Shown here: positions 19,086-63,584 of the stretch, piece after piece
Layout: each line of letters starts with the position of its first letter
Numbering within the stretch: the stretch's first letter is position 1
Source of the DNA: Nitrospiraceae bacterium
GTDB taxonomy: Bacteria > Nitrospirota > Thermodesulfovibrionia > UBA6902
Assembly: GCA_003599025.1 (NCBI GenBank)
Contig: QZIL01000002.1
Span: 1,371 to 65,370 of the forward strand
Direction of reading: 5' to 3'
Length of the DNA: 64,000 nucleotides
Position numbers and translations under genes: made by a program
Notes under the pieces: generated by a model
Told to the model about the DNA's origin: nothing
What the model saw: only the letters and a program-made list of their open reading frames with translations
Databases searched by the model: none

Positions 19086-19430
19086 TCAGACCCCGAGAGG
19101 CTCCCAGGATTTAAACATCAGCACTTCCTCCCCCGGATTCGGAAGCCCCGCTATCTTCCATGCCTGTACAGGATCGAGGAATTTCTCATTTAAACAGTTA
19201 CTGGGCTGGTGTACATTCTTGCAGACAGCACGGAGTATCGGAAAGAAATTGTATTTTTTATAGTATGTCCTGATGAATTTCAGTATATCGATCCTGTCTT
19301 CTGTCAGCTCCTCCACGCCTTCCCTTTCAGCCAGGGCACAGGCCACCTTTTCGTTCCAGTCTTCATAGTTAAGGAGAAAGCCGTCATCGTCTGTAGTGAC
19401 TTTCAGCTTTCCATATTCAAGTGTTTTCAT
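19086..19430 (-). CDS. DsrC/TusE-family protein lacking the C-terminal ..GCV cysteine
   Basis: Start at ATG 19430 (GAGGTGcatt-ATG). DEDGFL..EDWNEKVACALAEREGV.ELTEDRIDILKFIRTYYKKYNFFPILRAVCKNV...KIAGLPNPG is DsrC-like, but it ends EEVLMFKSWEPLGV instead of the canonical P(K/T)GCV. Confidence 0.75.
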   Translation of the reverse strand: MKTLEYGKLKVTTDDDGFLLNYEDWNEKVACALAEREGVEELTEDRIDILKFIRTYYKKYNFFPILRAVCKNVHQPSNCLNEKFLDPVQAWKIAGLPNPGEEVLMFKSWEPLGV

Positions 19431-19561
19431 AATGCACCTCGCTTCATGTCTAATTTTCTTTTTATACAGGCTATACAGAATCATTATCATAAATAAATCC
19501 GGACGTCAAGCGTCCTCTCAAAGGGCGTCATGTCGAATATGTCCGTGACTTCTACACTGCC

Positions 19562-20122: not shown

Positions 20123-20203
20123 CAAATGCAGCTTAAGTCGTTCTGTAGGCTTAATGTTAATTTATACTGATCAGACGGTAATAATAAAAAAGGAGGTGCG
20201 GTC

Positions 20204-20779
20204 ATGAAAGACAAAATCATATGGGAAACCGTCATGAATAATGCCCTGGGCAGGGCGGAGCGTGAAGGCAAATTGATTTTAGTCGATTTTTTCAATCCCG
20301 GATGAATAGGCTGTCAGCAGATGGATGCAGTTACGTATCCAGATCCCAAAGTCGCAAGTTTCATAGATCAGCATTTCATCCCTCTCAGACTTCATCATGA
20401 TGAGAAACCTTATGCGCAGGAGTTCAACATTCACTGGACCCCTAGCATACTCATACTGGATAAAACACGGAGTGAGCACCACCGCACCATGGGCTTTCTG
20501 TCGCCAGATGATTTTATTCCGTCTCTGTATATCGGAATTGCCAAGGCCTCTTTTGACTCCGAAAATATGGACAGGGCGCTGGTATATTTTGATAATTTGC
20601 TTACAGAATATCCAAAGAGCGACTTTGTACCTCAGGGGATATTTCTCAAGGGCGTCACAAGGTTTAAAATCACTCATGAAGCAAAGCTTCTGAGAGAGGC
20701 CTATGAAAAACTGAGTGCAAATTATCCGGCAAGCTACTGGACCAAGAGGGCATATCCGTACAGGCTTATCAGCACATGA
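20204..20779 (+). CDS. Thioredoxin-fold protein (Thioredoxin_7-like N-domain plus helical C-domain) with in-frame TGA read as selenocysteine in a UxxC motif
   Basis: ATG 20204 has an excellent SD (AAAGGAGGTGcggtc). The frame reads ...GKLILVDFFNPG-TGA(20303-20305)-IGCQQMDAVTYPD and continues into track ORF 20321..20779. The TGA occupies the position of the first Cys of the CxxC redox motif. Confidence 0.7.
20322..20341 (+). promoter_or_regulatory. Candidate bacterial SECIS hairpin
   Basis: U-GGAUGC-[AGUUAC]-GUAUCC-A forms 7 bp including one G-U pair, with a GU-containing apical loop. The stem starts 17 nt after the UGA. Confidence 0.45.
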
Positions 20780-20925: not shown

Positions 20926-21180
20926 TCAGCTGCCTTTTTCGAAATTCGTTATAAATTCCCCGATCTTGACCCCGAGATGGACACATTTGATATCGTTCAT
21001 GCACTCATCCGCATCGTTTTTATCAAGATATGTCTGTAGCTCATGGGAATTCTTCTTAAACATGATTATAAAAGCATTTTTCTCTTTACTGAAATCCAGC
21101 CCGACAGAGATATTGTGCTTCATTATCTCCGGGTACATTGCCATCACTTTGTCTTTCAACGCAACATTTGTATATCCCAT
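20926..21180 (-). CDS. Hypothetical 84-aa protein
   Basis: Intact ORF MGYTNVALKDKVMAMYPEIMKHNISVGLDFSKEKNAFIIMFKKNSHELQ... located between the selenoprotein and the TrxR-fusion genes. I recognise no family. Confidence 0.45.
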   Translation of the reverse strand: MGYTNVALKDKVMAMYPEIMKHNISVGLDFSKEKNAFIIMFKKNSHELQTYLDKNDADECMNDIKCVHLGVKIGEFITNFEKGS

Positions 21181-21339
21181 ACTTTCCTCCTTTGTTCAGC
21201 ATCGCAGGGTCATGTCCTTCAGCACCATCAAATAAACTTCGTGCCCTGACTTTATACGACCATTATATCAAATATATTTCTCATATCAAGTCCTGTTTTA
21301 CAGATTGCATTGCCGTACTTATCTGATAAAATACACGTT

Positions 21340-22947
21340 ATGGAAGACAAACTGATTTCTGAAGATGTGCGCAATTCACTGAAGAAGGCATTTACCCGTC
21401 TCACTGATACCGTGACTATTGAGGTCTACACACAGGAGGGCATGAATGATTCCTTCAATGAAGCAGCTGAAATCTTCATGAAAGCCATTTCGCAGCTTAC
21501 TGACAGGATAAAAGTCAATTTTTATAAAACCGGAGATAAAGCTGCAGGGCAGCGCGATGTAAAACGGTCTCCGACAATTCTTATTGATCCTGATAAATGC
21601 AAGATACGGTTTACAGGCTCTCCTGCCGGGGAGGAGGCCGCGGCATTTATCATGACCCTGCTCATGGCCTCCACAGGCAGGACATATCTTTCTGACGACT
21701 CACGGAAACGGCTCGATAGACTCAGGGAAAAAAGACTCGTGCGTGTCTTTGTAAGCCCGACATGTCCCTACTGCCCGCAGCAGGTCATATATGCTGTCTC
21801 TGCAGCGATCGAGAAAAAAGAGCTCATCTCAGTCGAGATCATCGAGATTTATGAGAACCCTGACCTCGCGGAAAAATACGGCGCCATGTCTGTGCCGACA
21901 ACCTTTCTGGGTGAAGAACTCATGGCAGCCGGTCTTCAGCCTGAAGACTCATTCATCGAATCAGTTGTTGAGGGAAAGAAGGTTGAATATGTAATGCCGG
22001 TGGGCCGGGAGGAAATGAGGGATTACGACATCGTTGTAGTCGGTGGCGGCCCGGCAGGGCTTACAGCCGCAATATACGGGGAGCGCAGCGGGTTGAAGTG
22101 TATAGTACTTGAAAAGGCAAATGTAGGCGGGCAGATATCTGTTACTCCGGTGGTCGAAAATTATCCGGGTTTTGCCCAGATCGCCGGGAAAACGCTCGTT
22201 GATCTCATGGCAAAACAGACGCTGGAATATTCTGCTCTTCTTCAGGGTGTGGGAGTCAGTGATGTTACAAACAAAGACGGGATACTGGAGGTGAGCACAG
22301 GCAGGGGGACTTACAGGACCAGGGCGCTTATAATAGCAACCGGCGCATACAGCCGGAAGCTGAATATACCGGGGGAGGACAGGCTTGCGGGAAGGGGAGT
22401 AGGCTACTGTGCAACATGCGACGGATATCTCTTCAAGGACGGGAAAGATGTCATTGTTGCCGGTGGGGGTAACAGTGCCCTTACAGATGCCCTGTACCTT
22501 GACAGCCTTGGGGCCCATGTAACGATCGTACACAGGCGAAACGCCTTCAGGGCAGAAGACAGACTTCAGCAGAGCGTATTCCAGAGAAACATACCTGTTG
22601 AATGGGACAGTATCGTTGAGGAAATCACCGGAGAAAAAAAGGTTGAGAAGGTGTCAGTCAGGAACAAAAAGACCGGAAAGAAAAAGAGCCTCTCTGCCCA
22701 GGGGGTTTTTGTTGCCATAGGATACGAACCGAACAACAGCATCGCAAAAAAACTGGACCTTGAGCTGGATAATGAGGGTTACATCAGGGTGGATGCTCAA
22801 ATGAGAACATCCATGCCCTCTGTTTATGCTGCCGGAGACATAACAGGCGGCATAAAGCAGATTGTTACAGCTGTGTCACAGGGCGCAACTGCCGCGCTTA
22901 CGGTATTTGAAGACATCGCAAGTCCCTACTGGAAGAAGGCCCTTTGA
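21340..22947 (+). CDS. Fusion of a glutaredoxin/PDO-like double thioredoxin-fold N-domain (CPYC) with thioredoxin-disulfide reductase (CATC); AhpF-like architecture
   Basis: The N-domain contains VFVSPTCPYCPQQV. The C-domain has DIVVVGGGPAGLTAAIY (FAD), GVGYCATCDGYLF (redox-active CxxC), VIVAGGGNSALTDALYL (NAD(P)H) and AAGDITGG. Start taken at ATG 21340. Confidence 0.85.
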   Translation: MEDKLISEDVRNSLKKAFTRLTDTVTIEVYTQEGMNDSFNEAAEIFMKAISQLTDRIKVNFYKTGDKAAGQRDVKRSPTILIDPDKCKIRFTGSPAGEEAAAFIMTLLMASTGRTYLSDDSRKRLDRLREKRLVRVFVSPTCPYCPQQVIYAVSAAIEKKELISVEIIEIYENPDLAEKYGAMSVPTTFLGEELMAAGLQPEDSFIESVVEGKKVEYVMPVGREEMRDYDIVVVGGGPAGLTAAIYGERSGLKCIVLEKANVGGQISVTPVVENYPGFAQIAGKTLVDLMAKQTLEYSALLQGVGVSDVTNKDGILEVSTGRGTYRTRALIIATGAYSRKLNIPGEDRLAGRGVGYCATCDGYLFKDGKDVIVAGGGNSALTDALYLDSLGAHVTIVHRRNAFRAEDRLQQSVFQRNIPVEWDSIVEEITGEKKVEKVSVRNKKTGKKKSLSAQGVFVAIGYEPNNSIAKKLDLELDNEGYIRVDAQMRTSMPSVYAAGDITGGIKQIVTAVSQGATAALTVFEDIASPYWKKAL

Positions 22948-47806: not shown

Positions 47807-48217
47807 CTATTTGACGAGCTTTTGCGTCACGAGCGCAAGCTGGGTAATCTCCAGCCTCTGGAGCAAATCCAGCACCTCTATGACGCCTTTGTACGCTATT
47901 TTTTCATCTCCCCGGATCACCACGGGCAAATTAGGGTCCGCAGCTTTGTATTGGCGGAGCCTGTCTTCCAGTTCTCCCATAGTCACAGGGAAGCTGTCGA
48001 GATACATGGTCCCTTCCGAGGTGATGGTGATCGCCTTTGTCGTGGCCTTGACCTTGCCGGCAGCCGCGCTCGCCTTTGGAAGGTTGACGCTGATCCCCTG
48101 TACGGACGCCGTCACTACGATCATGAACACTAAAAGGAGGTTCCATGCAAGGTCCAGCATGGGAACGACGTTGATCTCATCGTATATCTCATGTTCTTCG
48201 TAGGGGTTATGCCTCAT
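47807..48217 (-). CDS. exbD: ExbD/TolR-family protein
   Basis: From ATG 48217 it reads MRHNPYEEHEIYDEINVVPMLDLAWNLLLVFMIV, the canonical ExbD TM with conserved Asp. This is followed by VNLPKA....ITITSEG..YLD and VVIRGDEKIAYKGVIEVLD. It overlaps the exbB-like gene by 11 nt. Confidence 0.85.
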   Translation of the reverse strand: MRHNPYEEHEIYDEINVVPMLDLAWNLLLVFMIVVTASVQGISVNLPKASAAAGKVKATTKAITITSEGTMYLDSFPVTMGELEDRLRQYKAADPNLPVVIRGDEKIAYKGVIEVLDLLQRLEITQLALVTQKLVK

Positions 48218-50063
48218 GACGCGGCCCTTTCTCCTCTTCCAGCTTAAGAATGAAGTCATCGATGAAGACATTGACGTCCGCATTCATGTTCTTGATATTG
48301 CCGGTAATATAGCTGCTTGCGAACAGGGCTGGAATTGCGATCAGGAGGCCTGCCATGGTACAGGCAAGCGCAGAGGCGACCCCGGGCGCAATGGCTGCGA
48401 GGTTCGCTTCGCCGCTCTCTGCAAGGCTTGCAAAGGTGTTCATGACCCCCCAGACCGTGCCGAGAAGACCCAAAAACGGCCCGCCCGCAACACTCATGTT
48501 CATGATAACCATGCCAGCCGCCAGTTTTCTGCTTTCATACATGGCCTGCTTTTCCACCGCTGCTTTAAACCCGTTCATGGCCCTTTCCGACAACCCGCTC
48601 CCGTGTTTTGATGTTTCCCCTTTTTTCTCCATCAAACGCCTCAGCTCAACACAGCCTGCGCGATACACCCGGTAGAGCGTCGAATGCTGAAAGTCCTGTT
48701 CCTTGTCAAAGAGGGACATCGGATTATCCATCCCTCTGAAATTCTCCGAGAAGGTTTCGTTCCCTTTTCCGGCAAGACGGAATATTGTTATCTTCTGCTG
48801 AAAGATGTACACGGACGCGAATCCCATGAGGATCAGAAATCCGATAATAAGCCAGCCGTCAAGGGTGATGGTCCTGATAATGACCTTCATGAGATGGACT
48901 GTCAGCGATTCTCCGCTGCCTCCGCCTTCCTCCGGCTCCATGTAAGACATCAGCATGCCGTCCGGTCCCTGGCCCTGGAAGGCGGCCCTTATCCATCCGG
49001 CAGATCTGGCTGTGCCGGACAATTGCATCTCGTCCACATCTCCGGTAAAGACATTGCTCCCTTTCACCGATGCGCCGATGATGATGTCGGCAGCCGGCGC
49101 AGGGACCATTCCCTTGAGTTTGATATACGCGGCCTGTCTGCCGTCGAGATACAGTGTGATCTGGTTGTCAGGGTCTGCTGTCACGGCCAGATGGTGCCAG
49201 CCCTTCGGGGTCAGTACCGCTGTTTTCGGCGTCACCGTCGCCTGCCCCTTGCCGGTACTGAGACTACAGTAGACCTTCGATTCTTCCACTCCAACAGTGA
49301 ACGACTGCTTCCCGTCGTCCCAGGATAAAAAATGCGTATTGCCTTCAGACTGGTTGACGCGGACCCACGTGGAGAAGGTAAACCCCTTGGTAAAATTAAG
49401 CGACGACGCCCTGGTAATAGTCATCAACTCTCCGGCCCCGCTGAACTGGGCGCCGTTTCCCACAACTGAAGGGACACCGAGCTTCCCTGAAAACGAGGCC
49501 GCGTGATTGCTGTAGGCCGTTGCGTCACGCGGATTGCCATCCTCATCGCCCAGGTGATAGACAGCCACCTGGTTCACATCGTACGTGCCGCCCGCGTCCT
49601 GGCCGTCAGGTGCAGAATCATTCCCATAATACATCCATATGGAATCCTGACTGCCGCCCCCGGATATCCTGGGGACCTTGACCCATATGAGGGCGATCTC
49701 TTCTATAGGATCAAACTTCTCTATGTGATATTTCAGGGGAGACTTATCGTCAAGGCTTACAAACCTGAGGTCCGAACCATCCTCTTTTGCGCTTGGAAAA
49801 CTGAAGTTGCCTGTATGCAGGCGGACCAGCAGCGGGACATCAGCGACATTCTCATCGATTCCGGCCCCGTTTGAAGAAGTATCAAATTGAATCTTCATCC
49901 TCTGCTGCCACTTCCCGTCCCACCATGCATTAGCATCAGGGACCATAAACAGTCCGATAGTAATCATCAGCAACACAATCAGCGCTGAGATTTTATTCAG
50001 CCTCAGTTCCGATAAAAAGGCCCCCGGAACACCTCTTTCAACTTTGTCTTTCTTTCTGTCCAC
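48207..50063 (-). CDS. Fusion protein: DUF2341 + LamG/concanavalin-like lectin domain + MotA/TolQ/ExbB proton channel
   Basis: A signal-anchor is followed by WWDGKWQQRMKIQFDTS...VPLLVRLH...GSDLRFV (DUF2341). Next comes FTFSTWVR...GWHHLAVTAD...ITLYLDG..VDEMQLS (LamG-like). It ends with three TM helices containing GGPFLGLLGTVWGVMNTF...IAPGVASALACTMAGLLIAIPA (ExbB core). Confidence 0.8.
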   Translation of the reverse strand: MDRKKDKVERGVPGAFLSELRLNKISALIVLLMITIGLFMVPDANAWWDGKWQQRMKIQFDTSSNGAGIDENVADVPLLVRLHTGNFSFPSAKEDGSDLRFVSLDDKSPLKYHIEKFDPIEEIALIWVKVPRISGGGSQDSIWMYYGNDSAPDGQDAGGTYDVNQVAVYHLGDEDGNPRDATAYSNHAASFSGKLGVPSVVGNGAQFSGAGELMTITRASSLNFTKGFTFSTWVRVNQSEGNTHFLSWDDGKQSFTVGVEESKVYCSLSTGKGQATVTPKTAVLTPKGWHHLAVTADPDNQITLYLDGRQAAYIKLKGMVPAPAADIIIGASVKGSNVFTGDVDEMQLSGTARSAGWIRAAFQGQGPDGMLMSYMEPEEGGGSGESLTVHLMKVIIRTITLDGWLIIGFLILMGFASVYIFQQKITIFRLAGKGNETFSENFRGMDNPMSLFDKEQDFQHSTLYRVYRAGCVELRRLMEKKGETSKHGSGLSERAMNGFKAAVEKQAMYESRKLAAGMVIMNMSVAGGPFLGLLGTVWGVMNTFASLAESGEANLAAIAPGVASALACTMAGLLIAIPALFASSYITGNIKNMNADVNVFIDDFILKLEEEKGPRHEA

Positions 50064-50066
50064 CTC

Positions 50067-53000
50067 TTACTCCTCCTCTTCCTCTTGAACTAAATCTATG
50101 ACTTTCACGTCCAGCCACTTCATTAAGATGTCATCTATCATCTGGGCCGCCTGGGCAGTCCTTTCCGCAGCTATGCCGGGGGTCGCATCACCAGCCATCT
50201 GGCCGGGCTGCGCAACGGAGCCGGCGCCGCCTGTGAGACCTCCAAGGGCCGCGCCGCTTGTAGACGCCTGAGGCACGCCGACAGACCCTGCCGAGAAACT
50301 GATATTGGCCGAATTCTTGACTTCCAGCGCCGCAAGGATGATCTTTCCTCCTGTGATCCCTGCCTCGCCTGCATCGATCACGCCGCTTGGGGCGGTGAGA
50401 TGTATATCTCCAGGCTCCGGCATCGCCAGAGGTCCCGACCCGTCAGGATCAAAGGTCACGGCGCGGATGCCGCTGCCAAGGACTGGGGGGCTGAACACTT
50501 TTCTGTAAATGCCTGAGCCGGCGGGATATTCCTCCATCCTGGCAGGCGAAGCGCTGACAGCCGTTCTCGATCCCCGTCCGGCATTTATGTTTCCCTCGTC
50601 GCTCCAGATAGTGATATCACCGCCATAAAAGGTCATGATCCGTGATTCGTTTACGTTCACGTCATACCCGGTAAAGATGTTGATTGCGCCGCCTCCCCCC
50701 GTCCATACGCCGGTAAAGTCATCACTTTTCTGACCGGCAATGGGCAAGGCTGTCTTGCCGAGGTTCATGCTACCAGCGGCGATAACAAAGATATCGGACT
50801 GCCCGATCGACGTTCCTATCTGAGAGGCGATCATGTTTATGTTGCCTTCGCCTGAGGGTGTTCCAAGCAGCGGTTTGATTGTCGCGTCCCTTGTTGTCTC
50901 CCGAAGCTCGGCAGCCTCCGCTGATTTGCCTTCAGAAAGCAATTCCGCATACTGATCGCCTGCATCGCGAATATCGTCAAAGAAGGTCCTGATCATGTCG
51001 GCAGGCAGGTTCTGATCATACCCCGACAAGACGACGAGTGTGCTCTTTTCAGTGCCTAACAGGACATTGTTGCCGTTTCCGATCGCCTGGAGACCGCCAT
51101 ATATCAATTTCTGATCTACCACGGCGTTGTTTGAAGTTCCCAGGTCGATCGAGTTGCCTGCCTGGACCAGGAAAACGCCCGGGCCGCCCTGGATCAGGCC
51201 TCCTGTTTTGCTCTTTTTTTCATACTGCATCCGGATATCGCGCCCTGCCTTGATCATGGTGACATCCCCCGTACTAATGTTCTGTCCCTCATAGGTCATA
51301 TCGAGGATGTCCCGTCCTGCCCGTATCTCGGTCTTTTTCGCCGCGTAAAGTCCGAGGTTTCTGATGTCCCTGCCCGCGCTGATCCCGATTTCCCGGGTGT
51401 CGCCGGAGTGCAGCGGCGAGGCAAGTGCCTGGAGTACGGCATCTTCAGGCTTAAAGTAGCCATGATGGTTATAAAGAGTCCTTTCCGTATTCCAGGTCAG
51501 ACCGCCGTTACTTACTAAATCTTTGTAAACCCGGAAGAGGCCATACCAGTACTTTGGAGCGATATCGGACATCGTGATACCCGCCGCCTTGCCGGAATAA
51601 CTGGATGCCGTGCGTACTGCCTGTACAATATCCACCCCGGCATCAAGCCGAAGCCTGCCATCCGGAGAAGATGTCAGGGTAAGGTCATCACTGAGCAGTA
51701 GGATGTTCCCCCCGGCTTTAATTTCTACATTGGCCGGTAAGATTTTCGCGAACTTCGATATATCATGTCCAGTAGGTGTATATAGCGGAGATACACCGGC
51801 AAAGGTCAGATCTTCCCCTGCCTTCAGGCTGATACCGGTATATTGCGTGTAAGTGCAGTTTATCCAGTAGTATTGATTTAATTGATCGCTTGCAAGTGAG
51901 GGGTTCAACACCGAGCCGATCTTCATCGCTCCCTCAGCGGCCACGGACATCCGGCTGTCAAAGAGCTCGATCTGCTGGGACTTATCAGCGCTGCCGAAAT
52001 TCCCCATGGCGTGAATCTCTCCTTGCCCCATCCTGTTCAGTAACCGGCCATCGACGTTGCCGCCGGCATAGATGGCGAGGTCACCTTCGCCAAAGGCGCC
52101 TGCCTGGGTCAGGAAATCCGAACCAGTGCGGATGTAAAGATCGCCCCCCCCCATGGCGGCAAGACCGGACGTCGTATCAAACTGTTTCTTTTCTTTGGGT
52201 GATGATAAGGTATAAACAGACTGCCGCGCATAACTTGCCGAGAACCAGCCGTATTTTTCCAAAACGGTGTTATTCCGCGTGCTCCCCCCGGGCTTCAAGA
52301 TGGGCGTGAAATAATCCCAGGCATTCGTAGCAGGAGGCATGGCGCTGGTCCATTCTCCATTTGAAATCGTCCCCACATGCCGGCCCACATCCAGAGTGAT
52401 GTTCCCGCCATCGGCATATCTCCAGTAATATGTGAGGGTGTTGGAATTAGGGGTGTTAAAGTAATTGTCTTTATCAGCCAGCATGGGTTTAGGCTTACTT
52501 GACGGGTCATCATAAGGCGGGTCTACATCTGTCGTATCATCTGTTCGAAGCATACCAGTCGTGCGAATAGCGCCCAGGGTGCTCAGACCGGATACTATTG
52601 CCGTATTGAGCTGGAGGTCCCGGCCGATATCTATAGCGATATCCCCGGTGGCGGTCTGTATGGCGCCGCCGTTGATTATAAGGTCCCGTCCGATGTCCCC
52701 TTGTATGTCCCCGTAAGGAGAGGCAAGGTTATATCGCATGGTCGGATCAATCATAAAGCCTAACGGAGTGTCCTGCCCCCTGCCGACAAGCGTGTCTCGC
52801 CCCGAGGCGAATCTGACAGGCGCGTGTTCGGTGTAAACAACTTTCTGGTCCGCGATTTTCAGGTCCCCTTTGCCATGGACAACTGCAAGGGGGGCTGCGC
52901 CAACAGTGTACGAACCCGCGACGAGGTTGAATGCCCAGGAATCCCTGCCCGCGCTGCCCGGCAGGTTTGCCAGGGACGTAGGATGGTCGACAAGGTTGTT

Positions 53001-56000
53001 ATTGATGTAGAGATTGCCGCCTGCCCGGAGTGTAAGGACACCCGGCTCCTGTTCGCCGCCGAAGCGGACACCGCTCACGTCCCATTGCGTGTTCCAGTTG
53101 ATATCGCCGATGCTCACCACTTCGATGCCGGGAAGGTAGTGGAAGGAGGTGGTATCGGCGTCCACTTTGTTACTCAGCCTCTCGACAGGGGCATTTGCGT
53201 AGTGGGCATGAGCATCATCAAGCGCCGATGTAAAGTTAAAACCATCGTAGCCATACCTCCTGACGGCCTCCACGTAGAGCGCTGATGCGCCTGTTACAGA
53301 GTGGTTGAGTGAGATGGCGACATCTCTGAAACCTTCACTGTCATTTCTCCTGGCCCGCAGATAGACGATGCCGCCTTCGCTGCCGGACACATTTATCTCT
53401 TCCGCATTGACGATGACATCTCCTTCACTGGAACTGAGCTGAACATAACCACCCTCTCCGCCGTTTATTCCACCGGCTAAAATACTCCCATCGAGGTTGA
53501 GGTCATCTTGTGCATATAACTCTACTGTCCCGCCGTCCGGGTAGTAAGAACCCTCGTAAGCAGAGGCGTCAATTATCCCGTCAACATTGATTGCCCCACC
53601 GTCGGCAGTCAATTTGATCTTGTGCGCTTTTAACATCTCGCCGTTGTCAATGTCGATGTCTCCGGACCGGGCCCTGAGGTCGAGGGAAGCCGTGAAGCCG
53701 CCTTCTTCGACTTTACTGATCAGAGTAGAAAATTCAATGATCTCTTTCGCAAATTTATTCGTGTCAACGACCAGTGAGCCGCCGCGCCCGATGCTTTTAT
53801 CCTTTTTCTTTCCTGCGGCGCCCTTGACGTCGCCATAGATCATAACCCCTCCCACCGGCGCCGACAAGGTTATAATTCCTGCATCGCCCTGCGCACCGGC
53901 AGAGACATCGATGAGAGAGCCATTCTGCAGCTCGATTTTGCCGCTTTGTTCCTGTCCGGTTTCATCGATGAAGTTAGTTGCCAGGACCACACGCCCGCCG
54001 GGTGCGTCGTCAGTCCCCCGCGCAATGATCGAGCCGCCATCTTTCAAGATAATACCGTCTTCATCGCTGGGGGCCAGGAATTTGCCGTCTTCACCTTTTG
54101 CTCCCGCAGTTGTGAGTTTAATGTCCCCTCCGTCCACCTGCAGGACGGTCCCCAACTCGATTTTCCGTGCAGCAAACTCCAGTGTCCCGCCCGGGACACC
54201 GGTCGTCGCGGCCTGTCCATTATCCGGTCTCATCATCCTGATAAGGTTGGCCGGGTTGAGATCATTCTTGCCGGCCCCGGCAATCACACGAAAATCCGGC
54301 GGCTGATAGGTCCCTCCGGCCTCGTGGGCCGCGCCGGTCGTCACGCGTGCGGCTGTGATCTCAAGGTCGGCATTCCCCGTAGCAAGGCTCCCTTTCCCCT
54401 TGAAAACAACATCGCCTGCGCTGTTGAGCGCAATGGTCCTGAATCCTCCTAAAAGTATGTCTCCACTGCCCACTGTAACCTGTTCAGAGGCATTCACTGC
54501 AAAAATCCCCGCCTCTGTATCGTGCCCGGCGGTTGATGATGCATCCGTCCTGTCTCCTGAATTCGTGAGGGTAACTGCCGGCGCCGCAAGAGTAACTCCC
54601 GGACCATTATCTCCGATGATCCTTGCAGCGTCCATGGTAATGCTTTCTGCTGCGATAAGGTCATAGGCGTCCATAAACCTGATTTCTGTGGCAACGTCGG
54701 AATAACCTGCGATAAACGTCATGTCCTCAAACTGGCTGAATGCCTGAAGTAACTTCTTGTTCAGAAAAAGGCCGGCGTCATTTGATGTCTTCCGGGCCTC
54801 CGTGAATGTAATGGCCCGGCTTTTCAGCGTAATTGCACTGTTGTCCACCTGAAGGGCTCCCTGAATTTCATCTACTTTATTCACTTCGAAAATGATATTG
54901 TGGGCAGCATGCAAAAGGGAGTCCGGCCCGGCGGAAAGACTGCCCGGGGTATTCAGTGTGAGCACCCCTTCACCGCTGTCTTTATCTTTTTCCGTCCTGG
55001 CATAAAGCGTCGTGGGCCTCTCAGAGGTCCCCTCCATGATCGTAATATTGTCCCGGGCCGATACCGAGATGCCGGCTGCCTCCAGGTACGTTCCGCTTTC
55101 AAATATGATCGATTCCGTATTGAGCTTATCCTGCGGTGTATCAGGGTTCAGATATCCCAGTTCGACCTCTCTGAATTCCCTGTTTGACAGCCCGCGGGCG
55201 TCTATGGTTAATTTATCCTTCAGGTCCATGAGGTATGCAGTGGAATCAAAGCTGGTTTCGTAACCGAATCCACCGGGGAGAAGACTGCCGGTCATCTGCT
55301 CAACGCTTATGTTTTTGCCGCTCAGGGAGATTTTACCACCCCGGTAAATGGAGGCAAGCGGGCCGGCATTCAAGTCGCCGTCGATAATCGTAGTGTTCCC
55401 CTTGACTGTCAAATCCCCCGCATTACCCGCGATCATGCCCTGTTTGTCGAAATGCCCCTCTGTCATGACATCAGACGCGGACCTGACACTGTAGACCTGG
55501 GGCCGCGTGCCGAGTATCGTGGTGTCCGCAACGCCCGCATATCCGACGACCAGCGGATATCCATATTTCGACACCAACCACGGACCAGGGATGGATGGGC
55601 CGGCCTGAAGCTCGAGTATATAAGCCCCGGGCATGAAGGCATACCGCGCATTTTGTGCGTTCCCGGGGCCGAGCGGGACCATGGTATACATGCCCTCACT
55701 CAGACCACCCCCTCCCTTTAAATATACTGACGTCCCCGGCATCTGGAACCCGTTGTCCTTAAACACGATATAGCGGCCGCTCTTTTCAAGAGGATTACCG
55801 GTCCCTTCTATGCCCGGCAGGAACCTGTAGGCAAAAAATGAACCGCCGCCCGAGGCGTCAATCTTCGCTCCTTCACGGACAATGGTTTCATCAGCTTCGA
55901 GCTCAATACCCTTTTGGGGAAGAGTCTCTTGACCGAAAGGTAACGTTACGATATTTGTATCATCGGCGGCGTCGAACTGTCCCGGCTTCTTTTTGTCCTC

Positions 56001-59000
56001 GGTGACCCAGATGTTGTTGGAGTTGATCGCATCGTACAGTACCTCCGTATCTCCGGCGGTTGTCAAAACACTGCCCCCGGCCAGATAGATGCGGCTGCCG
56101 GCAGCGGTGGTAAGCGGGTTGTCATCATGATAAGGGTCCTCGTCGATGACAGCAGTTGTGAGTGTGATAGTCCCCAGGGGAGCTGCTAATGTGCCCCTGT
56201 GTTCGATCCCTGTGCCTGCCTCAACCGTAAGGTTTCCGCCTGCCGAGTAGATTGGACCGCCCGTACGTGTATCCGAGGGGAGAATGGTAATCTTGCCGTC
56301 GGCATGCAGGGTGTAATCAGAGTATATATTGGGATAGATTGTGCCGAGTGTATCCTGATACGTGTAAAAATTCCCCGGATAGATGCGGTCTGCTTTAAAA
56401 ATCATATCGCCTGCTGTGACAAGCTTGCCGGGTTTTACAAGCGCCTCTCCGGCTTTGCCTGAGAGCTTGTATGACGCCTGGCTCAGGCGAATGTCCCGCC
56501 TCGCTTCAATATGGACGTCCTTAAACCCGGTAAACTGCACGGTCCCGATCACATCGACCCATGTGCCTTTCAGGTTAATGAGAGCGTCTCCTGTCACGCC
56601 GCTTACCCCTGGTGTTTGTGTAACGGGGTAGTAACTGTTTGCCAGAACGATCCACGGCGCTTCAAGAGTCACCCCGTTCGACCCGGGACCCTCGATTTCC
56701 GGGGCATCGAGGGTCAACTTTCTGTTGAGTGCGACATTCATGGGCCCGCTGAACCGGAGAGATTTCCAGCTCCTCAGGGTCAGGTCATCGAAACCCAGGT
56801 CCTTATAACGGACAATGTCTTCGGCCCTGACAACCAGTGGATTGTTTTCATTTTGCCGGCTGATGGCCAGGGCGGCCCTCTTTATCCCTGCCATGTTCAC
56901 CCCGGTCTTCACATCGCCCATCCAGTCCATAGCATTTATGTAATTCAGAGTAAGGCTCCCGGGGTCTCCGGCCTCCTGGAAAGTGATAATGCTTCCATCC
57001 GCGGCCCTTATCCTGTTCTCGATTCTTTCAGACCCGGAGATGTCAATAATGGAACCTTCCTCCAGGGTCACATTGTACCCCGTAAGGGTAACGCTCCCTG
57101 CCTTGACCGGCTGATAATTCACCTCAAAGCCCTTTGGCGTTGTTGAAGGATCAGGCCGGTTGTAGCCTCCGGCCAATATTCTCGCGGTCGATTTGATTAT
57201 CATATCCGCGCTATTGCCTTCACCTTTAAGATTGATCGCACCCCCGCGAGCTTCGAGTGTCCCTGCTATCGTAACAGAGGTTTTCGCCTTACCCGAACCT
57301 GAAAAAGTGATTTCCCCCCCGGGCGCCGTCCGGACCGAGGCCCTTTCGGAAACAGTAATTCCAGCCTGATCGACATCAATGTCGTGCTGTCTTAAATTTC
57401 CCTGGTTATATCCCGTGGCCCCGGTAAAGTCACTGCCGGCAGTCCCTTTGAAGGAAGATGTCCCGGCCATGTATGCCGTGGACTCACTGAGCCTGAGGAG
57501 ATCGGGCCGGACGGGGACCTCAGCGCCCGCGACATTTGCCGCCTGCAGGGCAGACACAGGGGCGTTCAGCCGTACCAGAGACGTGGAGATGGCAATGTCG
57601 GGATCTATAACAATGTCTCCATAACTTTTAAGCGTGATGTTCGTAAAGCCTGTATCGTCGAAGCGATCGCCGGCCAGCAGGAGCGTCCCGCTGTTCAGAT
57701 CATCTTTGTACAGACCGCCAGATGCCGCATTAAAACCCGACCAGTCATTCCCTTCGGACCCCACACGGATCTCCGTGGATGTCAAGGTGATGGAGCCTCC
57801 TGATATCTTCCCGCTCCCATCAGCCAGTGCATATCCCCGGAGATCTCCATCAAGCATGATATTCGATCCCTGGATGGTCAATGCGCCTGCATTCGCGCCC
57901 TTGACTTTGCCCCCGGGGTCAATAGAATAACCGCCGCTTACATCCGCAATGGCCCCGGCCTGTATGAAGACACCATCTCCCAAATCCGTTTCATCAAGAA
58001 TTTCAATAACGCCGCCCCCGGTCAGGCCGTATCTGAAATCGGTATTGCCTGCTTTTCCCGCATGAGTATTGTCGATCCTCTCCCCTGAAACATCCAGCAT
58101 GCTTCCTTGTCCGAGGACAATCCTCTCCTGCAGCGGAACAAAGCTGCCTTCCTCTTTAAGGTTCCCGTTATAATCCGTGGGACTTGTAAGGTTCTCCCTG
58201 ATTAACATCCTGATCGTACCGGCAGGCGCCTTAATCTTCCCTCTGTGCTCAATCCTGCGCGTATCAATTTCAAAAGCGCCTCCCGGCTGCAAAGTAATAC
58301 CGGCCCCCTGCGCCGTCTGGACAGTCTCCAGCGCCGCTAACTGTATGGTATCCAGTTTCGCGTCATTCAGGGTCTTCGCTGAAAGGACAGTAGGCTGTTT
58401 CTCCGGCAAGCTGGAATCAGGGGTGATACCGGAATGGGGTGATGTTTCGGAAAGGATTAATATAGAAGACGGCTGGCTGCTCAACGCTTCATTATATGTA
58501 TCAATATCGCCTAAGATAAACGTGCCTGCCTTCGGAGCTTCAAGGCCGCGCGCCGCAGAAATGGCATACTCCTCTGATCCCCTGTCTGTAGTTACAAGAT
58601 TCTGGTGAATTCCACGCATCACACTCCCGTCGAGCCGACCGTCCAGGTAGACCGTAGCCGCTTTCAACCTGAGTGTACCTGCATCGCCGCCCTTTAACTG
58701 GCTGGGGACATGCGTCTGCAGCGGAGATGCGCCGCCGTAATAAAGGCCGTAATATGAGTCCTTAGTGCCGAACCGTTCAAATACCTTCTCATACTGCCCG
58801 ATAGTCTTGTCATACCTGATATTCAAGGGGGCACTGCTGATATCATATATCTTCTTGCCTGACACTAATTTTGTTGAATTTATAAAACCCTCGGCATAGC
58901 GGGCCGCGCCGCCGGAAAAATCAAGCAGCGCCCCCTCTTTGATAATTATGTCGCCCGCATTGACTGTTATGTCTATCATCCCGGTCTGGGACTTCCACTT

Positions 59001-60490: not shown

Positions 60491-62092
60491 TTAAAAAATT
60501 GCCTTTACCAGAAAATGGACTCTCTGGTCGCCGCTCTTTATCCTGTCCGTCGACCTGAGGGCCACTGCCCAGTCCAGTTCGTATTCAATATTCTTTGTTA
60601 TCGAGCCCCGCACTCCTGCCCCCGCCCCCTCTATTTTTGTGCTCTTGTCCTGTCCGGGAAGCGGTGATTTGATGGACATTGCCGCCACGTCATAGAAGAT
60701 ATAGGGGCCCGTCCGGAGCCACTTTCCAATTCCGGTCGTTTCAACAGGGTCAGGGAAAGAGACCTCCAACGTACAATGCACACCGTTGTCTCCTGAGGCT
60801 TCGCTTTCTTTATATCCCCTCACGGTGTCCATGCCGCCTGCCGTATATTGCTCATTGTCGATAAGCGGCTGATCAGACACCTGTCCGTCCACTTTAGCGA
60901 AAAGGACCATTCCGAGCGGCAGCTTCTGTGTCCGCTGGATGCCCAGATTGGCATAGAGGTAATTTGCCCTTGCCTTGAAGCGCTTGTCCTCAAACTCCGT
61001 TTCCCTGGAGCCTAATCCGCGCAGGGACAGGTTAAGTCCCCCGCTGAACTGGGTCGTCCCGCCCAACTCATCAGGCAGTGAAGCGCTGTACGAAAGTGAG
61101 AGCGGCAGATACGAAACGGGGGTCTCCGTTGTCTCTCCGCTTTCTGTTGTGAAACCGACGGCCTGATCGAAATGCTTGTAATCTATGCCGAGTGTCATGT
61201 TATGGTCGTAGAGCTTATATGACGGCAGGGGCATCACATAGCGCGCCCCGAATATCTCCCCCTTGCCTGTCACCTTGAACCCCTCGCCGAACGCGGTGTC
61301 ACTGTCAGACCAGATGCCGTAAAACGCAAGCTGGCGGTCTTTGTCCCATGGCGACGGAAGTACATATGAAGCGCCCAGCACCTGCGCCTCCTTTATCTTC
61401 TGCGGCGATGCCTGGTACTGAAAGGACAGGCTGTGTTCCTTTTGCCAGAGATTGTCATAGCGGACCATGGCGTTCAGCCGCAGTTCAGACGTGTCATGAC
61501 TGGCCCTGTTGTTGAGCTCAAGGGAGCCGTGCAAAGGCAGACGGTCCTCAACTTTCAGCTCTATATCGATGGTCCCCGGTTTCTTTCCGGGGGACATACT
61601 CGGGGTGACCTTGAAATCAGGATTTCTGTTCAGGAAGGCGATATCACTCTGCACGTCCGGCAGATAGATTATCCTTCCCGGCCAGAGGGACTTCAGGTCC
61701 CTCATGACCTTCCCCGATGTAAAATACCGGTTTCCGGTGACCTTCACTTGCCCTATCCGTCCCTCTATTACCTCAAGCTTTACGATGTTGTCCTGCAATG
61801 TCTGTTCCGGGATATTCACGATCACCGAAGGATACCCTGCATTGTGATAGAGCCTCTCAAGGGCGTCCCGCGCCTTTTCTACGTCAGCAACTGTCTTTCC
61901 GGTGCCGGTGAAGGGCATAACGGCGGCCCTCAGCTCAAGCGGGGACAAAAGGCTGTTCCCTGTTATTTCAAAATCCCTGATCATAAATCCTATGTCCTCG
62001 TTGTCCGCAGCCGGGCATTCTTCATGCGCCAGCGCATTGATCACAAAAATAGCAGCCATAAGATAGAAGATGAACGGAGTAATCCTCTTCAT
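60491..62092 (-). CDS. TpsB transporter (ShlB/FhaC/HecB family; POTRA domains plus Omp85-type barrel)
   Basis: POTRA reads IRDFEITGNSLLSPLELRAAVMPFTGTGKTVADVEKARDALERLYHNAGY. A second POTRA follows, then a barrel containing the TAGGMDTVRGY (VRGY/F L6 loop) motif and a terminal Phe (LVKAIF). Confidence 0.9.
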   Translation of the reverse strand: MKRITPFIFYLMAAIFVINALAHEECPAADNEDIGFMIRDFEITGNSLLSPLELRAAVMPFTGTGKTVADVEKARDALERLYHNAGYPSVIVNIPEQTLQDNIVKLEVIEGRIGQVKVTGNRYFTSGKVMRDLKSLWPGRIIYLPDVQSDIAFLNRNPDFKVTPSMSPGKKPGTIDIELKVEDRLPLHGSLELNNRASHDTSELRLNAMVRYDNLWQKEHSLSFQYQASPQKIKEAQVLGASYVLPSPWDKDRQLAFYGIWSDSDTAFGEGFKVTGKGEIFGARYVMPLPSYKLYDHNMTLGIDYKHFDQAVGFTTESGETTETPVSYLPLSLSYSASLPDELGGTTQFSGGLNLSLRGLGSRETEFEDKRFKARANYLYANLGIQRTQKLPLGMVLFAKVDGQVSDQPLIDNEQYTAGGMDTVRGYKESEASGDNGVHCTLEVSFPDPVETTGIGKWLRTGPYIFYDVAAMSIKSPLPGQDKSTKIEGAGAGVRGSITKNIEYELDWAVALRSTDRIKSGDQRVHFLVKAIF

Positions 62093-63493: not shown

Positions 63494-63584
63494 GTCGTTT
63501 TCGATAAAGGCAAACCATGGGCAACCATGGGACGCAAAGCCACGGGTCCCGATTATCGGGACAGCCGGGTCGCCGAAAAAACGA
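63494..63584 (+). ncRNA. c-di-GMP-I (GEMM-I) class riboswitch aptamer
   Basis: The conserved core is GGCAAACC(63509-16)-AUGG-GCAA-CCAU-GGGACGCAAAGCC(63529-41), with a 6-bp CCAUGG/CCAUGG stem capped by a GNRA loop. The second hairpin is CGG-GUCCCGA-UUA-UCGGGAC-AG-CCG, followed by GGGUCGCC. The closing P1 stem pairs UUUUCG(63498-503) with CGAAAA(63574-79). This is a near base-for-base match to the invariant blocks of the V. cholerae Vc2 aptamer as I remember it. Confidence 0.8.

What the first reader, a model, noticed from the sequence alone, without database searches (positions are those of the whole stretch)
20204..20779. Selenoprotein missed by ORF calling: thioredoxin-fold protein with a U-x-x-C redox motif and candidate SECIS
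The ORF track starts this gene at 20321. An upstream ATG (20204) has one of the best SDs in the window (AAAGGAGGTG). It opens the same frame: MKDKIIWETVMNNALGRAEREGKLILVDFFNPG, then TGA at 20303-20305, then IGCQQMDAVTYPDPKV.... In thioredoxin-fold proteins of this type the motif is ..(V/I)DFxAxWCxxCxxM.. . The TGA therefore replaces exactly the first redox Cys, giving UIGC. The hairpin at 20322-20341 has 7 bp and the apical loop AGUUAC. It lies at a distance from the UGA that is compatible with bacterial SECIS elements. Thiol-disulfide oxidoreductase-like proteins are a known class of bacterial selenoproteins. Neighbouring redox genes (cytochrome c, DsrC-like, PDO-TrxR fusion) fit this reading.
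Basis: partly seen in the sequence, partly recalled or inferred. Interest (0 to 1): 0.65.

Follow-up and report, generated by a model that had tools for sequence, protein, structure and literature searches.

The report
Truncated thioredoxin-like selenoprotein gene, known family
The gene at 20204-20779 is a real selenoprotein gene that standard gene callers cut short at its selenocysteine (TGA) codon, but it belongs to a selenoprotein family already catalogued in Geobacter and Syntrophus, listed with sequences in 2006 and credited to a 2004 paper, so it is a correct but ordinary finding.

Summary
There is a Shine-Dalgarno sequence and ATG at 20204, an in-frame TGA at 20303-20305, and a 7-bp hairpin with loop AGUUAC at 22 to 41 of the 20300s (20322-20341).

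The selenoprotein reading is strongly supported:
- The thioredoxin-fold domain runs across the TGA.
- 160 related loci from Nitrospirota, Thermodesulfobacteriota, Geobacterales and Ca. Brocadia carry TGA at exactly this column. Rare homologues carry Cys there.
- The 33-residue N-terminus is conserved.
- TGA is also the ordinary stop of 46/158 family genes, including this one.
- The hairpin meets all four published bacterial SECIS criteria. It shows strong synonymous-site constraint and compensatory base changes, and it decays in half of the Cys forms.

The family is not new. It is the "Thiol:disulfide interchange protein" selenoprotein (PF13098, UxxC) of Kryukov & Gladyshev 2004 and Zhang et al. 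2006. Their published Geobacter and Syntrophus sequences carry the same FFNPGUIGC motif, and one is 52% identical over 185 aa, E 6e-80.

The Sec machinery of this MAG could not be checked, because the window holds no sel genes. The family's function is untested. The predicted fold is a DsbD-gamma-like thioredoxin domain plus a TPR domain, an architecture like YbbN/CnoX.

Verdict: new member of a known kind, low interest.

The parts
20190..20198 (+). Shine-Dalgarno sequence AAGGAGGTG, 5 nt upstream of the true start codon
   Evidence: Read directly. 139/158 family genes have an SD-like motif before the equivalent start. No SD precedes the annotated start at 20321.
20204..20779 (+). Full selenoprotein coding sequence, 191 codons including Sec34. 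Member of the 'Thiol:disulfide interchange protein' selenoprotein family.
   Evidence: It is 52% identical over 185 aa, without gaps, to the published G. uraniireducens selenoprotein (E 6e-80).
20303..20305 (+). Sec-encoding UGA (residue 34), first position of the U-I-G-C redox motif
   Evidence: TGA sits at this column in 160 loci. Rare homologues have Cys there.
20312..20314 (+). Cys37 codon (TGT), the resolving Cys of the UxxC motif
   Evidence: Invariant in alignments A1 and A3.
20322..20341 (+). Bacterial SECIS hairpin. The conserved 6-bp core is GGAUGC/GUAUCC (20323-20328 with 20335-20340). The window has a seventh U-A pair (20322 with 20341). The apical loop is AGUUAC (20329-20334), with invariant G20330 and U20331.
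   Evidence: The loop starts 23 nt after the UGA. The six core pairs form in 125/132 distinct Sec-form sequences, and the loop GU is present in 131/132.
20222..20518 (+). Thioredoxin-fold domain (about residues 7-105). The cis-Pro loop W78-T79-P80 lies at 20435-20443.
   Evidence: Pfam Thioredoxin_2 46.8 bits, Thioredoxin_7 44.4 bits, Thioredox_DsbH 39.3 bits. AF2 model pLDDT 96.3. DsbD-gamma matches with TMt about 0.70.
20504..20767 (+). C-terminal all-helical TPR-like domain (about residues 101-188)
   Evidence: PDB profile hits to the CpoB/YbgF and BamD TPR domains. Helices 101-188 in the model. Weak Pfam TPR_6 and YfiO hits.
20777..20779 (+). True terminator, also a TGA
   Evidence: Homologues end at the same position. 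The terminator is TAA in 66, TAG in 46 and TGA in 46 genes across the family, so TGA is not globally reassigned.
20321..20323 (+). Internal Met40 codon, wrongly used as the start by gene callers. It lies inside the SECIS region.
   Evidence: P0001, the public annotation of this very gene, is a 152-aa 'hypothetical protein'.
21310..22947 (+). AhpF-like fusion of a Thioredoxin_3 domain and a pyridine-nucleotide disulphide oxidoreductase. A possible reductant of the selenoprotein (inferred, not shown).
   Evidence: Pfam. A TrxR-like flavoprotein lies within 3.5 kb in 9 other loci, most of them 30-180 nt downstream and mostly on the same strand.
20926..21180 (-). 84-aa conserved Cys-containing protein of unknown family that recurs near family members. 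Any link to the selenoprotein is only an association.
   Evidence: No Pfam hit. Homologues lie within 3.5 kb in 11 other loci.

Best explanation
Window 20204-20779 (+) encodes a 191-residue cytoplasmic selenoprotein. It is a member of the previously catalogued 'Thiol:disulfide interchange protein' selenoprotein family (PF13098, UxxC).

How the codon is read. Translation starts at ATG 20204. UGA 20303-20305 is read as selenocysteine because the mRNA hairpin 20322-20341, whose loop starts 23 nt after the UGA, acts as a bacterial SECIS. By analogy with the E. coli mechanism it would recruit SelB-GTP-Sec-tRNA(Sec) through the exposed G-U of its apical loop. This step is inferred.

What the protein is. 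It has a DsbD-gamma-like thioredoxin fold. The redox motif Sec34-Ile-Gly-Cys37 sits at the N-terminus of helix 36-44, opposite the cis-Pro loop W78-T79-P80. A TPR-like helical domain (residues 101-188) follows.

Most likely chemistry (inferred). Sec34 attacks a substrate disulfide or other oxidised sulfur. Cys37 resolves the mixed selenenylsulfide. The internal Se-S bond is then re-reduced, perhaps by the TrxR-like flavoprotein that is sometimes encoded directly downstream. The TPR domain would hold a protein partner or client, as in the Trx-TPR protein YbbN/CnoX.

Shown here: the recoding signature, the conservation, the SECIS features and family membership. Inferred: actual Sec insertion, the substrate and the reductant.
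For: (1) Pfam Thioredoxin_2, Thioredoxin_7 and Thioredox_DsbH domains span the TGA (residues 2/7/18 to 73/86/105). The AF2 model of the read-through product has pLDDT 96.3 and pTM 0.90 with a complete Trx fold.

(2) TGA sits at the same column in 80/80 GTDB species-representative loci and 78/80 metagenome loci, from at least four phyla or classes.

(3) Cys occupies the column in 7/20 full-length database homologues. The 13 'W' entries are TGA translated with code 4: P0016 is encoded by L001 with TGA at that codon.

(4) Codons just upstream of the TGA vary synonymously (AAC/AAT, CCN, GGN) while the residues are kept. The N-terminus is 33 aa in about 150/158 genes.

(5) TGA is the normal stop of 46/158 family genes, including this one.

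(6) The hairpin has six core pairs formed in 97-100% of cells, with compensatory double changes at two stem pairs (AU to GC, UA to AU). TAC at Tyr is used only when its partner is G. Asp is GAT 72: GAC 0, against 30:22 at a nearby Asp codon. Thr is ACG in 72/72 and Ser is TCG in 10/10. The loop G-U is invariant in 131/132 sequences.

(7) All four bSECIS model criteria are met for the window: 6-nt loop, 6-7 bp stem, G at loop position 2 followed by U, 23-nt spacing, -8.8 kcal/mol.

(8) Of six distinct Cys forms, three have lost stem pairs or the loop G, against 8/132 Sec forms (Fisher p = 0.007).

(9) Published family sequences carry LLDFFNPGUIGCKQMDAV. The window protein is 52% identical to the G. 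uraniireducens member over 185 aa without gaps, E 6e-80.
Against: No selA, selB, selD or tRNA-Sec gene, and no second TGA-bridged gene, was found in the 64-kb window. Sec decoding in this particular MAG is therefore assumed from the gene itself and from the review's statement that Nitrospirae carry selB/selC (PMC13188914).

No member of this family has been shown experimentally to contain Se. The 2026 review lists it as 'predicted with high confidence'.

The hairpin is not thermodynamically exceptional (z = -0.66). It lies in a stretch encoding highly conserved residues (QQMDAVTYP), which by itself explains part of the nucleotide conservation.

The compensatory changes come from a few related clades, probably two or three events.

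Three of six Cys forms still keep the hairpin intact.

No Rfam family matches.

The proposed reductant and the client-binding role of the TPR domain rest on weak neighbourhood data (9-11 of 166 loci) and on a low-TM architectural analogy.
Confidence: 0.93

Rival explanations
1. The TGA is a genuine stop. The locus then encodes a 33-aa leader peptide and a separate 152-aa TPR protein starting at ATG 20321, as currently annotated in public databases.
For: This is what gene callers produce. About 80% of the top 120 database relatives are 150-152 aa entries. Met40 is invariant.
Against: The 152-aa product would start in the middle of the thioredoxin fold, without strand 24-30 or the redox motif. 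No Shine-Dalgarno sequence precedes 20321. The upstream 33 codons are conserved in frame, in length and at the protein level across phyla. Homologues with Cys at the column are continuous proteins. Met40 is invariant because ATG forms part of the hairpin and of the conserved QQMDA helix.
Confidence: 0.03
2. The gene is a pseudogene, or the TGA is a sequencing or assembly error in this MAG.
For: MAG assemblies contain errors, and a single in-frame stop is the commonest signature of a pseudogene.
Against: The same TGA occurs at the same column in 160 independent loci from isolates and metagenomes. The flanking residues are under purifying selection and there are no other disruptions.
Confidence: 0.005
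3. TGA is read as a standard amino acid, Trp or Gly, because the organisms use an alternative genetic code (table 4 or 25). This would explain the 'W' seen in many database entries.
For: 13 of 20 full-length database homologues show W at the column.
Against: The DNA of one such entry (P0016, locus L001) has TGA, and the locus does not translate to the protein under code 11, so the W is a gene-caller choice on short contigs. TGA terminates 46/158 family genes, including this one at 20777. The column aligns with the catalytic Cys of a CxxC motif, not with Trp. The carriers are Nitrospirota, Thermodesulfobacteriota, Geobacter and Brocadia, which are not known to use code 4 or 25 (established knowledge).
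Confidence: 0.01
4. The protein is a selenoprotein, but the 20322-20341 hairpin is not the SECIS. Its conservation would merely reflect the conserved peptide QQMDAVTYP, and the real signal would lie elsewhere.
For: The hairpin overlaps highly conserved codons. Three Cys forms keep it. The fold z-score is unremarkable.
Against: The constraint is at synonymous sites, which the peptide does not dictate: GAT 72:0, ACG 72/72, TCG 10/10, TAT 78:0, and TAC only opposite G. The amino-acid changes D to G and Y to F occur together and preserve pairing. No other conserved structure lies within the 60 nt after the UGA. All bSECIS criteria are met.
Confidence: 0.03

Closest known systems
'Thiol:disulfide interchange protein' selenoprotein family (Kryukov & Gladyshev 2004, EMBO Rep 5:538; Zhang et al. 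2006, PMC1794560; Table 1 of PMC13188914: PF13098, UxxC, representative WP_011366075.1)
   Same: The motif is the same (LLDFFNPGUIGC(Q/K)QMDAV(T/A)YP). The length is the same (186-191 aa). The C-terminus is the same (PY(R/S/K)LL). PF13098 is the top Pfam hit. The window protein is 52% identical to the G. uraniireducens member over 185 aa without gaps. It is a member of this family.
   Different: Only the host differs. This is a Nitrospirota (Thermodesulfovibrionia-like) MAG, whereas the members listed in 2006 were Geobacter and Syntrophus. This copy is annotated in public databases as a truncated 152-aa hypothetical protein. The historical name suggests a periplasmic Dsb protein, but the protein has no signal peptide or membrane segment and carries a TPR domain.
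Bacterial SECIS consensus (bSECISearch model, Zhang & Gladyshev 2005; criteria as given in PMC13188914 Fig. 2)
   Same: 6-nt apical loop, 6-7 bp upper stem, G at loop position 2 followed by U, 23 nt between the UGA and the loop, -8.8 kcal/mol.
   Different: In the published loop pattern, N1 and N2 pair across three nucleotides (N1-G-[G/U]-N-N2). Here the covarying positions are loop positions 1 and 4, which flank only the G-U (132/132 complementary). No lower stem is conserved.
DsbD C-terminal domain (DsbD-gamma), e.g. PDB 2fwh, 1uc7, 1vrs
   Same: It has the same thioredoxin-fold subtype (Thioredoxin_7-like). Foldseek gives TMt about 0.70 and rmsd 2.3-3 A over about 115 residues at 19-24% identity. 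The PDB profile E-value is about 2e-8.
   Different: DsbD-gamma is the periplasmic domain of a three-domain membrane electron transporter with a CxxC motif. This protein is small and soluble, has Sec in place of the first Cys, and adds a TPR domain. The NCBIfam DsbD score is 34 bits against a cutoff of 330.
YbbN/CnoX 'chaperedoxin' (PDB 3qou, 3qdn)
   Same: It is the only solved proteins with the same two-domain layout, an N-terminal thioredoxin fold followed by a C-terminal TPR domain. These are the top Foldseek hits (E about 1.5e-6).
   Different: Sequence identity is 13-14%. Whole-chain TM is only 0.40-0.42 (rmsd 11-12 A). YbbN is about 285 aa with a longer TPR domain. That E. coli YbbN lacks a CxxC motif is from memory, not tested here. 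The resemblance is architectural, and homology of the whole protein is not shown.
Other thioredoxin-like selenoprotein models in NCBIfam (seleno_TsoB NF045694; Trx_VPGUxxT_two NF041383)
   Same: They are thioredoxin-like folds with Sec in or near the redox motif. Local similarity is weak (33.5 and 21.2 bits).
   Different: The scores are far below the cutoffs (805 and 275 bits) and the motifs differ. No NCBIfam model reaches its cutoff for this family, which probably explains why annotation pipelines keep truncating it.

Membership tests
'Thiol:disulfide interchange protein' selenoprotein family (PF13098, UxxC) | Full-length sequence homology to the catalogued members (G. metallireducens, G. 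uraniireducens, S. aciditrophicus) | tested here: met
   The published sequences were retrieved from Additional file 4 of PMC1794560. BLASTP against the G. uraniireducens member gives 52% identity over 185 aa, no gaps, E 6e-80.
'Thiol:disulfide interchange protein' selenoprotein family (PF13098, UxxC) | In-frame TGA giving a U-x-x-C motif at the thioredoxin-fold active site | tested here: met
   TGA at 20303-20305 is followed by ATA GGC TGT, giving U-I-G-C. The motif FFNPGUIGC is identical to the published members.
'Thiol:disulfide interchange protein' selenoprotein family (PF13098, UxxC) | PF13098 (Thioredoxin_2) domain | tested here: met
   46.8 bits against a cutoff of 27, residues 18-105, spanning the Sec position.
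'Thiol:disulfide interchange protein' selenoprotein family (PF13098, UxxC) | Cys-containing homologues that align Cys with the TGA | tested here: met
   7/20 full-length database homologues have Cys there. Six distinct Cys-form genes were confirmed at the DNA level with TGC or TGT.
'Thiol:disulfide interchange protein' selenoprotein family (PF13098, UxxC) | Selenium actually incorporated into the protein | not testable with these tools
   This needs 75Se labelling or mass spectrometry. The family is listed as predicted, not experimentally verified (PMC13188914 Table 1).
Bacterial SECIS element (bSECIS consensus model) | Apical loop of 3-9 nt on an upper stem of 4-16 bp, immediately downstream of the UGA | tested here: met
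   The loop AGUUAC is 6 nt. The stem is 7 bp in the window, with a 6-bp core conserved in 125/132 distinct Sec forms.
Bacterial SECIS element (bSECIS consensus model) | G in one of the first two loop positions, usually followed by G or U | tested here: met
   G at loop position 2 and U at position 3, in 131/132 sequences.
Bacterial SECIS element (bSECIS consensus model) | [quoted passage not shown] | tested here: met
   23 nt (20306-20328). The spacing is the same, without indels, in all 76 aligned sequences.
Bacterial SECIS element (bSECIS consensus model) | Minimum free energy of -7.5 kcal/mol or lower | tested here: met
   -8.8 kcal/mol for the window's 24-nt segment. Across the family, 95/132 segments reach -7.5 and the mean is -8.6.
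Bacterial SECIS element (bSECIS consensus model) | Loop pattern N1-G-[G/U]-N-N2 in which N1 and N2 pair | tested here: inconclusive
   Positions 1 and 5 of the loop do not pair (A and A). Instead, positions 1 and 4 covary perfectly: AU, GU, CG and GC types, 132/132. This is a variant of the pattern.
Bacterial SECIS element (bSECIS consensus model) | Binding by SelB and UGA recoding dependent on the element | not testable with these tools
   This needs a reporter assay or a binding assay.
Sec-decoding trait of the host genome | selA, selB, selC (tRNA-Sec) and selD present | tested here: inconclusive
   None is in the 64-kb window: ARAGORN found 0 tRNAs, Pfam of 20 larger ORFs found no sel gene, and no second TGA-bridged gene turned up. 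At phylum level, the review notes selB/selC in Nitrospirae.
YbbN/CnoX chaperedoxin | Homologous Trx plus TPR two-domain protein | tested here: inconclusive
   The architecture is the same and these are the top Foldseek hits (E 1.4e-6). However, TM is 0.40-0.42, identity is 13-14%, and the protein is about 95 residues shorter. It is not filed as a member.
DsbD (protein-disulfide reductase) | Three-domain membrane protein reaching the NCBIfam cutoff | tested here: not met
   34.3 bits against a cutoff of 330. Only the gamma-domain region matches. The protein is 191 aa with no hydrophobic segment.

The most novel reading that the evidence does not exclude
This family may be an almost obligately Sec-dependent cytoplasmic Trx-TPR 'chaperedoxin-like' oxidoreductase of anaerobes. 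It would be re-reduced by a dedicated TrxR-like flavoprotein. It would have spread across at least four phyla together with a nearly frozen SECIS, whose loop has a covarying pair flanking the G-U that differs from the published consensus. The historical label 'thiol:disulfide interchange protein' would then be a misnomer. The family's extreme Sec:Cys ratio (about 132 distinct Sec forms to 6 Cys forms among close relatives) would mark a reaction for which Cys is a poor substitute.
Probability: 0.2. Interest if true: 0.4.

Novelty: new member of a known kind. Interest (0 to 1): 0.2.

Why it matters
The practical value is for annotation. This gene, and most of its hundreds of relatives in public databases, are stored either as truncated 150-152 aa 'hypothetical' or 'tetratricopeptide repeat' proteins, or as code-4 artefacts with Trp at the active site. 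No NCBIfam model reaches its cutoff for the family. A dedicated protein model, plus the very uniform SECIS (UGA, 17 nt, GGAUGC-NGUNAC-GUAUCC), would fix these entries automatically.

Biologically it adds nothing fundamental. The family and its Sec codon have been listed since 2004-2006. The results extend the documented range to Nitrospirota/Thermodesulfovibrionia and Ca. Brocadia. They also show that the family is overwhelmingly Sec rather than Cys, and they give a testable structural hypothesis (Trx plus TPR, YbbN/CnoX-like) for a selenoprotein of unknown function.

Tried and rejected
(1) Rfam. The gathering scan of the whole window found only a c-di-GMP riboswitch. The permissive scan of 20250-20420 gave no SECIS family hit, only chance snoRNA-like matches at E above 0.5. 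Rfam does not model this element.

(2) Single-sequence thermodynamics. The fold z-score is -0.66, which is uninformative.

(3) Sec machinery and a second selenoprotein in the window. There are no tRNAs and no sel genes among 20 larger ORFs. Of 43 TGA-bridged frames, only this one is credible.

(4) A metagenome scan seeded with Cys forms was meant to collect a large Cys control set. It returned 78 Sec forms, one Cys form and one Ser form. The Cys control therefore rests on only six distinct genes, obtained through look-ups of individual proteins.

(5) The redox-neighbour argument. DsrC-like, cytochrome c and transaldolase genes are not conserved neighbours: 2, 1 and 0 of 166 loci.

(6) NCBIfam. 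No family-specific model was found.

(7) The 2004 paper with the original description (PMC1299047) is not held, so it is cited through the 2026 review and the 2006 paper.

(8) The pseudogene, split-gene and alternative-code readings were considered and rejected (see the rival explanations).
Full report
OBSERVATION. AAGGAGGTG lies at 20190-20198, ATG at 20204 and TGA at 20303-20305. The same frame continues to the TGA stop at 20777-20779. The mechanical ORF list begins the gene at ATG 20321, giving 152 aa. The hairpin is TGGATGC (20322-20328), loop AGTTAC (20329-20334) and GTATCCA (20335-20341), and it is the predicted minimum-energy element of the region. On its own it is not exceptional, with a z-score of -0.66 against shuffles, so its support has to come from comparison with other sequences.

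THE PROTEIN CROSSES THE TGA. With Cys as a stand-in at residue 34, Pfam finds Thioredoxin_2 (46.8 bits), Thioredoxin_7 (44.4) and Thioredox_DsbH (39.3). These start at residues 18, 7 and 2, well upstream of the TGA. An AlphaFold2 model of the read-through product is very confident (pLDDT 96.3, pTM 0.90). It shows a complete thioredoxin fold with residue 34 at the N-terminal cap of helix 36-44, followed by an all-helical domain from 101 to 188. A product starting at Met40 would lack the first strand and the active site.

HOMOLOGUES. A search of 5.8 billion proteins gave 820 relatives. Most of the best 120 are 150-152 aa entries that begin at the Met after the TGA. This includes the public annotation of this very gene (P0001, 100% identical, 'hypothetical protein C4581_00350, Nitrospiraceae bacterium'). 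The roughly 189-aa entries conserve the N-terminal 33 residues and show either C (7/20) or W (13/20) in the TGA column, inside an almost invariant FFNPG-x-IGCQQMDA. The W is an artefact. The contig encoding the 'W' protein P0016 has TGA at that codon and does not translate to the protein under code 11.

THE DNA OF RELATED LOCI. A scan of one genome per GTDB species found 469 relatives. All of the best 80 match query residues 1-189/191 and carry TGA at the column. They come from these groups:
- Thermodesulfovibrionia and other Nitrospirota
- Thermodesulfobacteriota (Desulfobacteria, Syntrophia, Desulfomonilia, Desulfurivibrio)
- Geobacter and Geomobilimonas
- Ca. Brocadia

A metagenome scan deliberately seeded with Cys forms still returned 78 TGA, 1 TGC and 1 TCA. 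Across 158 Sec-form genes the N-terminal segment is 33 codons in about 150, the start is ATG in 150, and a Shine-Dalgarno motif is present in 139. The terminator is TAA in 66, TAG in 46 and TGA in 46. TGA is therefore an ordinary stop in these organisms, and in this gene, which excludes a reassigned code. The codons just before the TGA vary synonymously (AAC/AAT, all four CCN, all four GGN) while the residues are kept. That is the mark of a translated region.

THE SECIS. In 76 distinct sequences aligned without any indel, the six core pairs GGAUGC/GUAUCC form in 97-100% of cells. The window's seventh U-A pair is not conserved.

The constraint lies at synonymous sites:
- Asp seven codons after the TGA is GAT in 72 and GAC in 0. 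An Asp six codons further on is GAT in 30 and GAC in 22.
- Thr is ACG in 72/72 and Ser is TCG in 10/10.
- Tyr is TAT in 78 and TAC in 0.

Compensatory changes exist:
- L027, L035 and L070 change Asp to Gly and Tyr to Phe together. This converts A-U to G-C and U-A to A-U.
- L152, L153, L159 and L161 use TAC only where the partner base has become G.

The loop is N-G-U-N-(A/U)-C, with G-U present in 131/132 distinct Sec forms. Loop positions 1 and 4 are complementary in 132/132, with AU, GU, CG and GC types.

Scored against the published bacterial SECIS model (3-9 nt loop, 4-16 bp stem, G in the first two loop positions, 16-37 nt from the UGA to the loop, MFE of -7.5 kcal/mol or lower; PMC13188914 Fig. 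2), the window element meets every criterion. It has a 6-nt loop, 6-7 bp stem, G at position 2 followed by U, 23-nt spacing and -8.8 kcal/mol. The one departure is that the covarying loop pair flanks two nucleotides rather than three.

As a negative control, six distinct Cys-form genes were examined. Three keep the hairpin. Three have broken it: L162 has lost the loop G-U and the ACG codon, L167 has a U-U mismatch, and L169 has lost the loop G and has a C-A mismatch. An intact stem plus G-U is present in 124/132 Sec forms against 3/6 Cys forms (Fisher p = 0.007). The sample is small and the sequences are related, so this is supporting evidence rather than proof.

WHAT COULD NOT BE SHOWN. The window holds no tRNA, no selA, selB or selD among its larger ORFs, and no other credible TGA-bridged gene. 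At phylum level, the 2026 review mentions selB/selC arrangements in Nitrospirae. No experiment exists for any member of the family.

IT IS A KNOWN FAMILY. [quoted passage not shown] It cites Kryukov & Gladyshev 2004. Zhang et al. 2006 record it in Geobacter metallireducens, G. uraniireducens and Syntrophus aciditrophicus. Their Additional file 4 prints the three sequences, which read ...LLDFFNPGUIGCKQMDAV(T/A)YP... and end in PY(S/K/R)LL. The window protein is 52% identical to the G. uraniireducens entry over 185 residues without a gap (E 6e-80). Membership is therefore established. NCBIfam has no model that reaches its cutoff for the family. The best selenoprotein models, TsoB and VPGUxxT type 2, score 33.5 and 21.2 bits against cutoffs of 805 and 275. 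This plausibly explains the persistent truncation in databases.

MECHANISM AND FUNCTION. The recoding signature, the SECIS features and the fold are shown here. Sec insertion through SelB is inferred by analogy with the E. coli mechanism.

By sequence and by structure, the N-terminal domain is closest to the gamma domain of DsbD (PDB profile E about 2e-8; Foldseek TMt about 0.70, rmsd 2.3-3 A). The C-terminal domain is closest to the TPR domains of CpoB/YbgF and BamD. The only solved proteins with both domains in this order are YbbN/CnoX of E. coli and Salmonella (3qou, 3qdn). They are the top Foldseek hits, but with a whole-chain TM of only 0.40-0.42 and 13-14% identity.

The protein has no signal peptide or hydrophobic segment, so the historical Dsb-style name probably misleads. 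My best guess is a cytoplasmic Sec/Cys oxidoreductase whose TPR domain holds a protein partner. Sec34 would be the attacking nucleophile, Cys37 the resolving residue and W78-T79-P80 the cis-Pro loop.

Gene neighbourhood gives little help:
- An FKBP/SlyD-like isomerase lies directly upstream in 19 of 166 loci.
- A conserved 84-aa Cys-containing protein lies nearby in 11 other loci.
- A TrxR-like flavoprotein lies within 3.5 kb in 9 other loci, most of them 30-180 nt downstream and mostly on the same strand.
- In the window, the AhpF-like fusion at 21310-22947 fills the flavoprotein position.

VERDICT. This is a selenoprotein gene truncated by ORF calling, with a good bacterial SECIS. It is, however, a straightforward orthologue of a family catalogued about twenty years ago. 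Its value lies in annotation repair and in modest extensions: the wider host range, the very high Sec:Cys ratio, the uniform SECIS with a loop covariation, and the Trx-TPR architecture. Novelty: new member of a known kind. Interest: low.

Noticed in passing
window 63500-63578 (+): A c-di-GMP-I-GGC riboswitch aptamer (RF03167) scores 73.3 bits against a gathering score of 59, E 1.8e-15.
   Followed up: no
window 50067-60473 (-) and 60491-62092 (-): A giant 3468-aa ORF lies immediately downstream of a ShlB/FhaC-type POTRA transporter (Pfam ShlB, POTRA_2). This is the layout of a two-partner secretion system.
   Followed up: no
window 20926-21180 (-): An 84-aa protein with conserved Cys residues (...DADECMNDIKCVHLG...) has no Pfam match. 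Homologues lie within 3.5 kb of the selenoprotein gene in 11 other loci from several lineages, at 34-82% identity. It is a possible functional partner of unknown family.
   Followed up: partly
L055, L080, L122, L139, L146, L154 (+50 to +113 nt, same strand); L007, L008 (+30 and +181 nt, opposite strand); window 21310-22947: A thioredoxin-reductase-like flavoprotein of about 300 aa lies close downstream of the selenoprotein gene in these other loci. In six of them it is on the same strand, 50-113 nt away. The window has an AhpF-like Thioredoxin_3 plus Pyr_redox_2 fusion in that position. It is a candidate reductant.
   Followed up: partly
19 related loci, e.g. L102 1530-2081, L165 273-743: An FKBP/SlyD-like peptidyl-prolyl isomerase gene lies immediately upstream on the same strand, overlapping or abutting the selenoprotein start. 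It is absent from the window.
   Followed up: no
Public protein databases (P0016, P0017, P0020 and others; P0001-P0015 and others): Family entries are either truncated to 150-152 aa or carry Trp at the Sec position, because gene callers applied genetic code 4 to short contigs. This is a systematic annotation artefact.
   Followed up: yes
L156 (metagenome contig Ga0184631_10001181): One family member has TCA (Ser) at the Sec/Cys column (NLG-S-TGC) while keeping the downstream hairpin. It is either a natural Ser variant or a sequencing error.
   Followed up: no
window 20329 and 20332; alignment A2 columns 27 and 30: The two loop nucleotides that flank the invariant G-U of the SECIS loop are complementary in 132/132 distinct sequences, with four pair types. 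Only two nucleotides separate them. The published bSECIS loop pattern has three nucleotides between its pairing positions.
   Followed up: partly
window 19086-19490 (-): A DsrC-family protein (Pfam DsrC, 74.7 bits) ends in ...KIAGLPNPGEEVLMFKSWEPLGV. This differs from the Cys-containing C-terminal arm that I recall as typical of DsrC/TusE. The stop is TGA.
   Followed up: no
window 48207-50063 (-): An unusual fusion combines DUF2341 and Laminin_G_3 (concanavalin-like) domains with a C-terminal MotA/TolQ/ExbB proton-channel domain. It lies next to the giant secreted-protein gene.
   Followed up: no
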